Shown here in pieces: positions 760 to 23,538 of a stretch of DNA of 34,688 nucleotides. Numbering within the stretch: position 1 is the first letter of the stretch; each line of letters begins with the position of its first letter. The position numbers and the translations under genes are program-made. The stretch comes from a virus (taxonomy: Duplodnaviria; Caudoviricetes). The stretch is from IMG/VR virus record IMGVR_UViG_3300033485_000052, positions 1-34,688 of that record; one strand, given 5' to 3'. The notes beneath the pieces were generated by a model that was not told the DNA's origin, searched no databases, and saw only the letters and a program-made list of their open reading frames with translations.

Positions 760-818
760 AATATCCTTTCCGCTATTTCAGCGAACCAATTTTCGAGCTG
801 TTGTAGTTTTTGTTTCAT
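756..818 (-). CDS. 20-aa micro-ORF MKQKLQQLENWFAEIAERIF
   Basis: Strong SD GGAGGTG at 824-830; stop overlaps the start of the next gene. Below the ORF-track cutoff. Confidence 0.55.
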   Translation of the reverse strand: MKQKLQQLENWFAEIAERIF

Positions 819-845
819 CTTTTCACCTCCGTTTTTAGGGCTATT

Positions 846-2775: not shown

Positions 2776-2996
2776 ACATAATCCTTCACATCAATATCAA
2801 AATCAATCATCTCGCCAGTTTCTTGGCACTCAATTTGTACAACGATAGTATCATCATAGTTGCCGTCTTCGATAGCCTCTTTGATTTGTCGCACGATCTC
2901 AGGCTCATCGCTTTTTTGTAACTCGTAGAACTCCATGCGGATACCACGATTGCCATCAATATCGCTTCCGTAGTTTTTCTCAATTATTCTAATCAT
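2772..2996 (-). CDS. Acidic hypothetical protein
   Basis: ORF track gives 2772-3011. The SD GGAGGTG at 3003-3009 favours the ATG at 2996. Confidence 0.65.
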   Translation of the reverse strand: MIRIIEKNYGSDIDGNRGIRMEFYELQKSDEPEIVRQIKEAIEDGNYDDTIVVQIECQETGEMIDFDIDVKDYV

Positions 2997-3022
2997 CTTC
3001 TTCACCTCCATTGGTATTTAAA

Positions 3023-3055
3023 ATAGTAACATTGTTTAGCTTAATTAAGTATAAA
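3023..3055 (-). promoter_or_regulatory. Promoter with conserved upstream palindromic element, copy 2 (drives the recombination operon)
   Basis: TTTATACTTAATTAAGCT-AAACAATGT-TACTAT (extended -10 TGn). Confidence 0.75.
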
Positions 3056-5860: not shown

Positions 5861-5895
5861 ATTATATATATATCTTAATTAAGATAAGCTTAAAA
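5861..5895 (-). promoter_or_regulatory. kilA-N promoter with a perfect 16-bp palindrome
   Basis: TATAAT at 5861-5866; TATCTTAATTAAGATA at 5871-5886 shares the CTTAATTAAG core with three other promoters. Confidence 0.55.
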
Positions 5896-5977
5896 TATAT
5901 TATTTGATTAGTTTAATTTATGATTATTATGGTGAATCCAAATTTGGTTTTGCCTATTGCAATAAAAATATTGATTT

Positions 5978-6008
5978 AAAACGACGCTCTTTTATAAGAG
6001 GTTGTCGA
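5978..6008 (-). terminator. Intrinsic terminator ending the candidate sRNA
   Basis: CGACAACCUCUU-AUAA-AAGAGCGUCG followed by UUUU. Confidence 0.6.
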
Positions 6009-6064
6009 AAGTATCGCCCTGAGATGAAGCAGGACGATTAGGAGGAGGTGAATATATGAGGTGT
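5978..6064 (-). ncRNA. Candidate trans-acting sRNA with anti-SD motifs
   Basis: Extended -10 TGTTACTAT at 6070-6078; 5' tract GACACCUCAUAUAUUCACCUCCUCCU; 9-bp hairpin; terminator. Confidence 0.6.
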
Positions 6065-6105
6065 CCTAGATAGTAACAGGTAATTTTAATACATGATAGC
6101 TTATA

Positions 6106-6348
6106 TTAAGCTTGTAATACTTCTTTTGCTTGTTTAACGTGATCTTGGCTTACTTCGTTAGCTTCGCTTTCCGTGATCGCTTCTAAGAGTGTTAGTGCTA
6201 GTTTTTTAGGGATACCGTTTGGAGCTTTTTTAAGTGCCTTGATTGATATTGAAGCGATACCTTTTAATAGCGGTACTGCTAGATATTGAAGGGCTAGGGT
6301 TGCGTATATGTTCATTAAACATCCTTTTAGATTATACATCCATTTCAT
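6106..6348 (-). CDS. Small protein with hydrophobic N-terminus (possible lysis accessory); probable start at the internal MNIY ATG
   Basis: ORF; SD AAGGA precedes the internal ATG; lies downstream of the endolysin. Confidence 0.55.
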   Translation of the reverse strand: MKWMYNLKGCLMNIYATLALQYLAVPLLKGIASISIKALKKAPNGIPKKLALTLLEAITESEANEVSQDHVKQAKEVLQA

Positions 6349-6407: not shown

Positions 6408-7025
6408 ATGAAATTTATAAAAGACTTAGGGATGATGTTCCCAACTGAAAAAAGCAAGAGAAAACATAGATATTCATTATATCAATGTCATTGTGGCAAA
6501 GAGTTCAAAGTCCTTGAAAATGCCGTTAAAACAGGAACAACAAAATCATGTGGGTGTTCTCCATATGCTCCACTTGGAGGTTTTAGTAAACATAGGCTTT
6601 ATGGCACATGGAGGCAAATAATACAAAGATGTGAAAATAAAAATCATGATAGATATTCATCATATGGTGGACGTGGTATCAAGGTTTGCGATAGATGGAA
6701 AGATATTAAAAACTTCATTAAAGATATGTATCCAACTTTTAAAGAAGGATTAACAATTGACCGAAAAGATAACGACGGTAACTATGAGCCTTTAAATTGT
6801 CGATGGGCTGATGATAGTATTCAAACACAGAATATCAAAGTTATAAAATCAAATAATACAAGTGGCTATAAAGGTGTTCATTATTGTCATAGAACTGGTA
6901 AGTGGATAGCTAGAATTACAAATTATGGTAAAAGAACTTATATAGGTCTATACAATACTCCTGAGATTGCGTATAAAGCATACTGTAATTATATAGATAC
7001 TAATAATTTAGAGCATAGCCATTAG
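6408..7025 (+). CDS. HNH-AP2 homing-type endonuclease
   Basis: CHCG...KSCGC N-terminus; YGGRGIKVCDRW; LTIDRKDNDGNYEPLNCRWA HNH; NNTSGYKGV...KWIARI...YIGLY AP2 domain; SD AAGG. Confidence 0.9.
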   Translation: MKFIKDLGMMFPTEKSKRKHRYSLYQCHCGKEFKVLENAVKTGTTKSCGCSPYAPLGGFSKHRLYGTWRQIIQRCENKNHDRYSSYGGRGIKVCDRWKDIKNFIKDMYPTFKEGLTIDRKDNDGNYEPLNCRWADDSIQTQNIKVIKSNNTSGYKGVHYCHRTGKWIARITNYGKRTYIGLYNTPEIAYKAYCNYIDTNNLEHSH

Positions 7026-7643: not shown

Positions 7644-7899
7644 TGTCTACCTCCTTTGTAAGATAAAAAACTAAGCCGACCGTAAAAATACATTGGTCAA
7701 TAATTGCAAGAATCTCATAATAATACAAATCCATATCTAAAAAGAACTTATGCAAAAACCATGTTTCAATGATTAGATATATCATTGACCATAAAAACAT
7801 ATACTTGTATTTTTTAATATGCTCTGAAAATATAATTACCGCCCATAGCTTTATGCCAAATAGCACAATATGGAAAGTTAATAATAATGATTCTATCAT
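7624..7899 (-). CDS. Three-TM membrane protein, candidate holin
   Basis: Three hydrophobic segments and a charged C-tail, upstream of the endolysin. Confidence 0.5.
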   Translation of the reverse strand: MIESLLLTFHIVLFGIKLWAVIIFSEHIKKYKYMFLWSMIYLIIETWFLHKFFLDMDLYYYEILAIIDQCIFTVGLVFYLTKEVDNGERTN

Positions 7900-23157: not shown

Positions 23158-23538
23158 TTATTTTATATTACCCATAAGCTTAATAATTTCTTCATATAAA
23201 TAAGCTGTAATATATGGCACTATTTCATCTGTTGGAACTACATTGTGTCCAACAAAGTCACAAAACATTAAGGCAGTATGTGTTGATTCGTGTACGATAG
23301 TAGATAACTTATCGTTAAAAATTCCTATGATAAAAATATCGTCAGTTTCTTTACTTTCTGCATCTTCAAGCGTTGAACGCATTACGCATCCACCTCCTCC
23401 GTATTCAGGAGCATGACCTCTCCATTCTATTACTTTATTAAAATCTTCACGGTTGAAAAATACTAAAACCTCACTATGAAATATATCTAATGCAATAGAG
23501 GAATTTTTGCAAAGATTGTTTATTTCTTTTTGGGTCAT
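23158..23538 (-). CDS. HExxH metallopeptidase-like protein
   Basis: TIVHESTHTA followed by DEIVPY; lies between portal and scaffold. Confidence 0.6.
   Translation of the reverse strand: MTQKEINNLCKNSSIALDIFHSEVLVFFNREDFNKVIEWRGHAPEYGGGGCVMRSTLEDAESKETDDIFIIGIFNDKLSTIVHESTHTALMFCDFVGHNVVPTDEIVPYITAYLYEEIIKLMGNIK

What the first reader, a model, noticed from the sequence alone, without database searches (positions are those of the whole stretch)
5978..6078. Self-contained phage sRNA candidate with two anti-Shine-Dalgarno motifs complementary to the RBS of early-operon lead genes
Seen (minus strand): an extended -10 (TGTTACTAT, 6070-6078, identical to the one at 3023-3031), then a C/U-rich 5' tract GACACCUCAUAUAUUCACCUCCUCCU, a 9-bp hairpin (AUCGUCCUG/CAGGGCGAU) and an intrinsic terminator, about 87 nt in all. 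UCACCUCCU matches the 16S rRNA anti-SD. Seen: the first ORF after each shared-motif promoter has a GAGGUG-type RBS: GGAGGUGAA at 822-830 and 3001-3009 (9-nt perfect complements) and GAGGUG near 31645. GAGGUGA near 28300 follows another TATAAT. Most structural genes use AAGG(A/G). Established: C/U-rich sRNAs such as RepG (H. pylori) and CJnc190 (C. jejuni) repress G-rich leaders. Inference: this RNA may silence early phage operons or host mRNAs in a phage with no recognisable repressor. Caveats: any anti-SD will match strong SDs by chance, and the opposite strand reads as perfect SD plus a 5-codon ORF (MRCPR).
Basis: partly seen in the sequence, partly recalled or inferred. Interest (0 to 1): 0.8.

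Follow-up and report, generated by a model that had tools for sequence, protein, structure and literature searches.

The report
Phage RNA silencing early operon starts
A group of small freshwater phages keeps a conserved, folded, predicted 100-base RNA gene whose open stretch mirrors the ribosome-binding site and start codon of the first gene of their early operons, so it likely switches those operons off by base-pairing, though no expression data exist yet.

Summary
It is present in 7 of 8 related phage records that carry the upstream gene, while both flanking genes are swapped. The named -10 box is not conserved. The conserved one is TAAAAT (6088-6083), giving a predicted RNA of about 100 nt (6077-5978, minus strand), not 87. 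The 9-bp hairpin has double-sided changes at 4 pairs, and its 11 G-U versus 0 A-C cells fix the strand. The nearly invariant seed, CAU(C/A)UAUUCACCUCCU, covers the Shine-Dalgarno site and also the start codon. Its four best targets among 56 window genes are the four operon-lead genes. Of 16 lead genes behind the shared promoter, 15 start with AGAUG, against 3 of 53 other genes. A relative with a 94%-identical capsid lacks the RNA, the promoter motif and these sites. Best reading (0.6): a trans-acting repressor that shuts early operons down with a delay. Against: no RNA data, host only inferred, a bare 16S tail finds 3 of the 4 targets, and few independent lineages. This scan noted similar anti-SD phage RNAs before on other DNA (unchecked notes).

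The parts
6083..6103 (-). predicted promoter of the RNA: TAAGC (6103-6099), 10 nt, TAAAAT (6088-6083)
   Evidence: TAAAAT and TAAGC invariant in 8 of 8; same spacing as early promoters at 31687, 3043, 1275
5978..6077 (-). predicted RNA, about 100 nt (start inferred 6 nt behind the -10)
   Evidence: alignment A4; fold; homology ends sharply at 5977/5978
6063..6077 (-). variable 5' end; short hairpin in relatives (two unrelated sequences, both paired), one pair broken in the window
   Evidence: 7 of the first 20 alignment columns invariant
6043..6058 (-). seed CAUAUAUUCACCUCCU (CAUCUA... in all 7 relatives): anti-start codon plus anti-Shine-Dalgarno, single-stranded
   Evidence: 16 of 17 columns invariant vs 34 of 70 third codon positions of the adjacent gene; mean unpaired probability 0.93-1.00 in the 6 copies folded
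6013..6038 (-). 9-bp hairpin with invariant UCAUC in the loop (a second anti-AUG word)
   Evidence: 72 of 72 cells paired, 3 pairs changed on both sides; a fourth pair (6032/6019, C-G to A-U) in contigs of X2 and X3; 11 G-U vs 0 A-C cells
5978..6007 (-). 3' hairpin plus 4-5 U, terminator-like
   Evidence: 29 of 30 columns invariant, so no covariation; tRNA follows directly in L100
6106..6315 (-). 69-aa last gene of the late/lysis block, directly upstream in every carrier
   Evidence: no PHROG or Pfam family
816..830 (-). predicted target: GGAGGUGAAAAGAUG of a 20-aa lead ORF (818-756) whose stop overlaps the next start
   Evidence: -19.5 kcal/mol, rank 2 of 56; ORF 100% identical in G001-G003; TGATG overlap
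2994..3009 (-). predicted target: GGAGGUGAAGAAGAUG, lead gene of the recombination operon (Sak4-like, NinB)
   Evidence: -19.4, rank 3 of 56; same cassette ahead of different genes in G001, G002, G003, L100, L102
31636..31650 (-). predicted target: GAGGUGGAUGAGAUG, YopX lead gene
   Evidence: -20.5, rank 1 of 56; YopX by Pfam
28293..28306 (-). predicted target: GAGGUGAUUGUAUG, 120-aa gene ahead of the terminase genes
   Evidence: -19.1 with the window's seed, -14.5 with the relatives' base; the 80%-identical homolog in RNA-less G005 has a -10-like box 6 nt before its start and no such site
3023..3049 (-). shared early promoter CTTAATTAAGC-10 nt-TAnnnT (other copies at 31693, 1281; a variant at 5883 before KilA-N)
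   Evidence: 4, 3, 3, 3 copies in window and G001-G003, 0 in G004 and G005

Best explanation
This conserved, folded element is likely a stand-alone small RNA that is predicted to pair over the Shine-Dalgarno site and start codon of the first gene of the phage's own early operons and would thereby shut those operons down. Shown: the element, its conserved boundaries, the minus-strand structure, the open seed, the complementarity, and its co-occurrence with the early promoter/RBS cassette. Inferred: host sigma-70 RNA polymerase makes it from the TAAGC-10-TAAAAT promoter, and late transcripts running out of the lysis block add to it. It would build up with time and form a 13-15 bp duplex that excludes the 30S subunit. 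The next gene's start overlaps the lead gene's stop (756, 2775/2772, 31276/31273), so blocking one site would silence the genes behind it. The KilA-N/replication operon and the structural genes, which use AAGG-type sites, are predicted to escape. The net effect would be a delayed early shut-off in a phage with no recognisable repressor or integrase.
For: 7 of 8 non-self records with the 69-aa gene keep the RNA while lysin and downstream genes differ. Seed 16 of 17 columns invariant vs 34 of 70 third positions. Hairpin covariation score reached by 0 of 500 shuffles and by no slid control; 11 G-U vs 0 A-C cells. The top 4 of 56 window genes, with opening costs, are the four lead genes, 3.3 kcal/mol ahead of the fifth. 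AGAUG starts in 14 of 16 lead genes by an automatic rule, 15 of 16 after correcting one by eye, vs 3 of 53 other genes. The relatives' six bases next to the anti-SD core rank 19 of 4096 possible hexamers. Shuffling the 5' part while keeping the core: 6 of 300 (window) and 2 of 300 (relatives' base) do as well. G005 (complete; capsid 94%, portal 90% identical) and G004 have no RNA match, no promoter palindrome and no GAGGTG-N1-6-AGATG site. G001-G003 share the RNA and cassette but gave no hit to the window's capsid or portal. The promoter-plus-RBS pattern hit 4 records among 2.9 million viral contigs, and 3 carry the RNA. Precedent: CJnc190 pairs a C/U-rich loop with RBS and start codon in a bacterium lacking Hfq (PMC8687705, passages).
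Against: No transcript or repression data. A bare 16S tail already ranks 818, 2996 and 28295 on top, so most of the pairing is generic. The window's own hexamer ranks only 2686 of 4096 and loses 3.6-5.2 kcal/mol on three targets. The strongest duplex in the window (-25.5) lies inside a late gene at about 23400-23380, and similar non-lead sites occur in relatives. RNA-less G005 also has a lead gene with GGAGGAAAAGAUG (-14.6), and 7 of its 59 ATG starts are AGATG. The 15 lead sites fall into only 4-5 cassette types, probably paralogous. Three of the four double changes sit in two related sequences (L099, L100) and may be one event; 33 of 500 shuffles reach 3 such pairs. By the printed contig names most carriers come from one assembly. 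One target (28295) precedes the terminase genes, which fits a pure early shut-off poorly. The host is not identified.
Confidence: 0.6

Rival explanations
1. The RNA acts as the phage's immunity or dormancy factor. Made from its own promoter in a carrier cell, it silences early operons of the resident and of incoming related phages, in place of a protein repressor, as CI RNA does for P4.
For: No CI-like repressor or integrase among 62 window ORFs or 36 non-structural ORFs of complete G003. Targets are shared by phages with different capsids. One target precedes the terminase block. Antirepressor-type genes lie just downstream in most carriers.
Against: No evidence of lysogeny or plasmid state; two genome-contig scans found no prophage. 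The replication/KilA-N operon is not a predicted target (-6.5 to -11 kcal/mol). Seed and targets hardly vary, whereas c4 immunity separates P1 from P7 (PMC12197685, passage). RNA-less G005 also lacks integrase and CI among 41 ORFs scanned.
Confidence: 0.15
2. It is only the structured 3' end of the late operon (terminator and stabiliser that insulates the next operon); the seed is a leftover inverted copy of a lead-gene leader with no pairing role.
For: It starts 29 nt after the last late gene and always follows that gene. The 3' hairpin is the most conserved part. The complementarity could come from common origin.
Against: A terminator does not need an invariant unpaired seed, an own promoter with conserved spacing, or a covarying second hairpin. 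Relatives with the same lysis-block genes but another early module lack it. A tRNA follows the U-run directly in L100.
Confidence: 0.12
3. Its main targets are host mRNAs with strong GGAGGUG sites, or it soaks up a host RNA-binding protein through the repeated ACCUC and UCAUC words.
For: CACCUC copy number varies from 1 to 3 and UCAUC recurs in the hairpin loop. Redundant C/U sites mark multi-target host regulators such as LhrC and NfeR1 (PMC4132741 and 10.1101/2025.11.14.688489, abstracts).
Against: It does not explain why the phage's own lead genes, and almost no others, carry the matching site. No host genome was available to test.
Confidence: 0.1
4. The plus strand is the functional one: a strong SD driving a 5-codon peptide.
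For: AGGAGGUGAAUAUAUG is a perfect initiation site, and a 5-7 codon frame is kept in 8 of 8.
Against: The peptide is MRCPR in 4, MSCPR in 2, MMLPLIG and MRLPLIG in 1 each. No TAAGC/T-TAnnnT or TGnTAnAAT promoter within about 300 nt upstream on that strand in 0 of 8. G-U pairs favour the minus strand 11 to 0.
Confidence: 0.03

Closest known systems
CJnc190 (Campylobacter jejuni) and RepG (Helicobacter pylori); PMC8687705, passages seen
   Same: C/U-rich single-stranded site predicted to pair with a G-rich RBS and start codon; similar size; a probably related host group, where C. jejuni lacks Hfq and ProQ
   Different: Chromosomal RNAs with host targets and the seed in a hairpin loop; CJnc190 is cut by RNase III and has an antisense partner. 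Here: phage-encoded, seed in an open linker, several of the phage's own operons as targets, no Rfam match.
c4 RNA of P1/P7 and sar RNA of P22 (PMC12197685, parts 1-2 of 6 and passages); CI RNA of P4 (PMC4825925, passage)
   Same: Phage RNA that represses phage genes by pairing, c4 and sar at the ribosome-binding region; lies next to antirepressor-type genes
   Different: Those act on one antirepressor mRNA or their own leader. This one pairs poorly with the KilA-N and rep leaders and is predicted to hit 3-4 distant operons through a shared initiation site.
Cuckoo/NfeR1 anti-SD RNAs of alphaproteobacteria (PMC4615179 and 10.1101/2025.11.14.688489, abstracts) and LhrC of Listeria (PMC4132741, abstract)
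   Same: Redundant C/U-rich anti-SD words that reach many mRNAs
   Different: Cuckoo RNAs have 2-4 hairpins each with CCUCCUCCC in the loop; here the word is CACCUCC, outside the loops, with an anti-AUG extension.
SviR of the Vibrio phage satellite PLE (10.1101/2022.04.08.487710, abstract, outline and introduction)
   Same: Trans-acting RNA of a phage-related element that regulates several operons of its own genome
   Different: Satellite-encoded, also aimed at the helper phage; no shared sequence tested.
T4 RegB endoribonuclease (recalled; lead from scan note e1-6078167; no paper read)
   Same: Turns early genes off through their Shine-Dalgarno sequences
   Different: A protein nuclease, not a pairing RNA.

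Membership tests
Any Rfam 15 family | match at gathering score | tested here: not met
   0 hits in the window; no hit over the element at E<=10 or in L099/L100 at E<=1
CJnc190/RepG-type sRNA | C/U-rich unpaired site complementary to a G-rich RBS | tested here: met
   unpaired probability 0.93-1.00; duplexes -19 to -20.5 kcal/mol; prediction only
CJnc190/RepG-type sRNA | seed displayed in a hairpin loop | tested here: inconclusive
   open linker in 4 of 6 folds; 20-nt loop closed by a 5-6 bp helix in the window and G002; not in the consensus structure
CJnc190/RepG-type sRNA | repression of translation shown by compensatory mutation | not testable with these tools
   no expression or binding data
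CJnc190 | RNase III processing and overlapping antisense RNA | tested here: inconclusive
   no plus-strand promoter motif in 0 of 8; processing not testable
Cuckoo RNA | 2-4 adjacent hairpins, each loop with CCUCCUCCC | tested here: not met
   loops are CUUCAUCU and AUAA; definition from PMC4615179 abstract
c4 / sar antisense RNA | pairs with the antirepressor mRNA | tested here: not met
   seed vs KilA-N leader -6.5, vs rep leader -11.2 kcal/mol; ant-type starts absent from the top lists in relatives
P4 CI RNA | processed from the leader of the operon it terminates, with target sites on both sides | tested here: not met
   own promoter-like site, and a separate promoter-like site for the downstream operon; no strong nearby complement; processing itself not testable
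Intrinsic terminator | G+C-rich stem followed by a long U-tract | tested here: inconclusive
   9-bp interrupted stem and 4-5 U; not listed by the scan; tRNA directly behind it in L100

The most novel reading that the evidence does not exclude
One 100-nt RNA is the master repressor of a repressor-less phage group: the phage has tagged the first gene of each early operon with a common initiation signature, and the RNA reads that tag to impose dormancy and cross-immunity on phages with unrelated capsids.
Probability: 0.15. Interest if true: 0.85.

Novelty: new variant of a known kind. Interest (0 to 1): 0.6.

Why it matters
The phage RNAs in the review parts I read act on one phage mRNA or on host genes. 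An RNA that controls several of a phage's own operons through a shared RBS-plus-start signature would be a regulon-level timing switch without a protein. The family offers a natural control (same capsid, no RNA, no signature) and short, defined duplexes that can be tested in vitro without knowing the host. Unchecked notes of this scan describe the same logic in unrelated phages; if any case is confirmed, it may be a common and overlooked mode of phage gene control.

Tried and rejected
Rfam: nothing. Sequencing runs: no RNA holder listed, which says nothing on expression; one search used DNA contigs only. Host: two genome-contig scans found no relative; plasmid and phage searches gave nothing or only distant hits; ESM Atlas gave no host taxon. 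Campylobacterota is inferred only from AAGG(A)-type RBSs and TAnnnT promoters without TTGACA, matching PMC3847290 (passages). KilA-N scan: no viral relatives. Endolysin scan: 80 loci at 31-50% identity; 30 of them were searched with the RNA model and none matched (50 sources, 6 matches = window, 4 known carriers and one at E 0.57). L003 and 8 of 10 hits are chance pattern matches. L127/G008 matches the promoter-RBS pattern but is an unrelated provirus without the RNA. L105 has the 69-aa gene at 58% but no RNA in the 13.6 kb held; the rest of its record could not be searched. Literature: searches (0 papers) listed no phage RNA of this kind or from this host group; most subscription papers, including the original c4, CI and RepG papers, are outside the library. 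No supplements were read; the review's Table S1 of 38 uncharacterised phage sRNAs could bear on novelty.

Full report
Setting. The window is a complete 34,688-bp virus record with direct terminal repeats, 36.6% G+C, with P22-like portal, capsid, head-closure and ejection genes. Nearly all genes lie on the minus strand. No integrase or CI-like repressor was found among 62 ORFs or 42 non-structural ORFs. The element sits between the last gene of the late/lysis block (69 aa, stop at 6106) and a KilA-N gene (5830). The host is not identified. AAGG(A)-type ribosome sites and TAnnnT promoters without TTGACA fit Campylobacterota as described in PMC3847290 (passages); this is inference.

Observation. 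The minus strand folds far better than shuffles (z -3.46) and the plus strand does not (z -1.28). The consensus scan listed neither the promoter nor the terminator here. Rfam has no match.

Relatives. Scans with the 69-aa protein gave 4 viral loci and 8 metagenome loci. After dropping the window's own record and three duplicates, 8 distinct records remain. Seven (L084-L087, L099, L100, L102) carry the element directly behind that gene; the most distant (L105, 58%) does not in the part held. The flanks are swapped. The window's lysin has no hit in G001 or G002 and 47% identity in G003. The downstream gene is KilA-N, Rha-like, Ant or other. Homology stops at 5977/5978, also in contigs of the runs laid. 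By the printed names most carriers come from one assembly, so they are not independent samples.

Boundaries. TAAAAT (6088-6083) is invariant and lies 10 nt behind TAAGC, as in the early promoters at 31687, 3043 and 1275. A start near G6077 gives 100 nt (99-107 in the copies folded). The early promoters hold the palindrome CTTAATTAAG; the RNA's promoter has one extra base in its middle in 8 of 8, so it may be regulated differently (inference).

Structure and strand. The 9-bp hairpin is paired in 72 of 72 cells: 3 pairs change on both sides, 4 on one side, 2 never. The covariation score beats 500 of 500 shuffles and all slid controls, but the count of double-changed pairs is reached by 33 of 500, and those changes sit in two related sequences. 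Run contigs add a fourth, independent double change at 6032/6019. Eleven cells are G-U and none A-C, which points to the minus strand. The loop keeps UCAUC in 8 of 8. The 3' hairpin is almost invariant (29 of 30 columns) and so carries no covariation; a tRNA follows it by 3-4 nt in L100, so it may be read through. The plus-strand peptide is not conserved and has no promoter motif.

Seed. Columns covering UCAU(C/A)UAUUCACCUCCU are invariant at 16 of 17 positions, against 34 of 70 third codon positions in the adjacent gene, and are unpaired. The one variable base is C in all 7 relatives and in all run contigs covering it; the window has A. The first CACCUC is intact in only 4 of 8, and three relatives have an extra copy further 3'.

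Targets. With opening costs, the four best of 56 curated window starts are 31638, 818, 2996 and 28295 (-17.1 to -12.8; fifth -9.5; median -2.0), the only four with GAGGUG. Three follow the shared promoter; 28295 follows a separate TATAAT. Across six records, 16 promoters carry the palindrome. An automatic rule found AGAUG at the lead start in 14; one miss was a spurious ORF in a long leader whose real lead also has AGAUG; the other is the window's KilA-N promoter, a true exception. Among other window genes AGAUG occurs in 3 of 53. AGAUG is the complement of the seed's CAUCU, at the right distance from the anti-SD core. The relatives' hexamer ranks 19 of 4096, and 4 of 64 among those starting with CAU; the window's ranks 2686. 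Shuffling the 5' part gives 6 of 300 (window) and 2 of 300 (relatives' base) as good. The window's A weakens three targets by 3.6-5.2 kcal/mol but strengthens 28295 by 4.6; this is a single case and could be chance.

Against. A bare 16S tail (motif recalled) already puts 818, 2996 and 28295 first. The best duplex in the window lies inside a late gene near 23390, and chance-like sites of equal strength occur in relatives. The lead sites belong to 4-5 cassette types that probably share ancestry. RNA-less G005 has a lead gene with GGAGGAAAAGAUG, so strong sites with AGAUG can exist without the RNA.

Co-occurrence. G005 is complete, shares capsid (94%) and portal (90%) with the window, but has a divergent early region, no model match, no palindrome and no GAGGTG-N1-6-AGATG site; G004 (87% complete) likewise lacks all three. 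G001-G003 share the RNA, the palindrome (3 each) and the 20-aa ORF (100%) but gave no hit to the window's capsid or portal. The 28295 homolog in G005 looks leaderless. The promoter-plus-RBS pattern hit 4 records in all of IMG/VR, 3 of them carriers. The RNA therefore travels with the early control module, not with the virion genes.

Mechanism. Most likely (0.6) the RNA blocks initiation at lead genes, with polarity through overlapping stop/start codons, as a delayed early shut-off fed by its own promoter and by late read-through. Shown: anatomy, conservation, strand, complementarity, co-occurrence. Inferred: transcription, pairing, repression, polarity, timing. Rivals: immunity or dormancy factor (0.15), mere late-operon 3' end (0.12), host targets or protein sponge (0.10), plus-strand peptide (0.03).

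Relation to known systems. It would work like CJnc190/RepG, NfeR1 and LhrC (C/U-rich pairing at initiation sites) and like c4, sar and CI in being a phage RNA against phage genes. It fails the membership tests for cuckoo, c4/sar and CI, and matches no Rfam family. Paper searches listed no such RNA; the library lacks most subscription papers. This scan holds at least 8 unchecked notes of similar anti-SD RNAs in other phage genomes, none on look-alike DNA; they are not support. Verdict: real, a new RNA family of a known working kind, function untested; interest 0.6.

Noticed in passing
window 5000-4880 (-); L084 10375-10503 and 11300-11435; L085 10375-10503; L087 10381-10508: A structured leader ahead of rep and Rha/Ant genes: a 13-bp outer stem with many double-sided changes (10 of 21 predicted pairs), near-invariant UAAGAGUUU inside and CCUCU after it, which could pair in an alternative fold. 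Possible cis-acting switch; no significant Rfam match.
   Followed up: partly
window 1255-830 (-): A 430-nt untranslated leader behind the promoter at 1281, holding a weak tRNA-Trp(CCA) at 983-908 (ARAGORN; 21.8 bits, under Rfam's cut-off). Its 5' part is shared with RNA-less G005; G001 and G003 have different long leaders.
   Followed up: partly
window 818-756 (-): 20-aa ORF identical in G001-G003, stop overlapping the next start; lead gene in the window and G003, internal in G001 and G002. No Pfam family.
   Followed up: partly
L100 570-646, L102 about 7650-7727: tRNA with an enlarged anticodon loop inserted directly behind the RNA's U-run (Rfam 31.6 bits in L100; missed by ARAGORN).
   Followed up: partly
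window 31693, 5883, 3049, 1281: Perfect palindrome CTTAATTAAG in all early promoters, 14 bp long before KilA-N; present in carriers, absent from G004/G005. Could be an operator for an unidentified phage protein or only a promoter element.
   Followed up: partly
window 6408-7025 (+): HNH/AP2 endonuclease, the only clear plus-strand gene, inserted between lysin and the 69-aa gene; absent at that place in L084-L087.
   Followed up: no
window about 23400-23380 (-): GGAGGAGGUGGAUG inside a late gene (a Gly run), the strongest seed match in the window, ahead of an in-frame ATG.
   Followed up: no
window 7693-7592 region; G004 5349, G005 31399, L102 6798: A 15-16 codon Gly/Arg-rich ORF with a strong GGAGG site between the 91-aa gene and the lysin in several relatives.
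   Followed up: no
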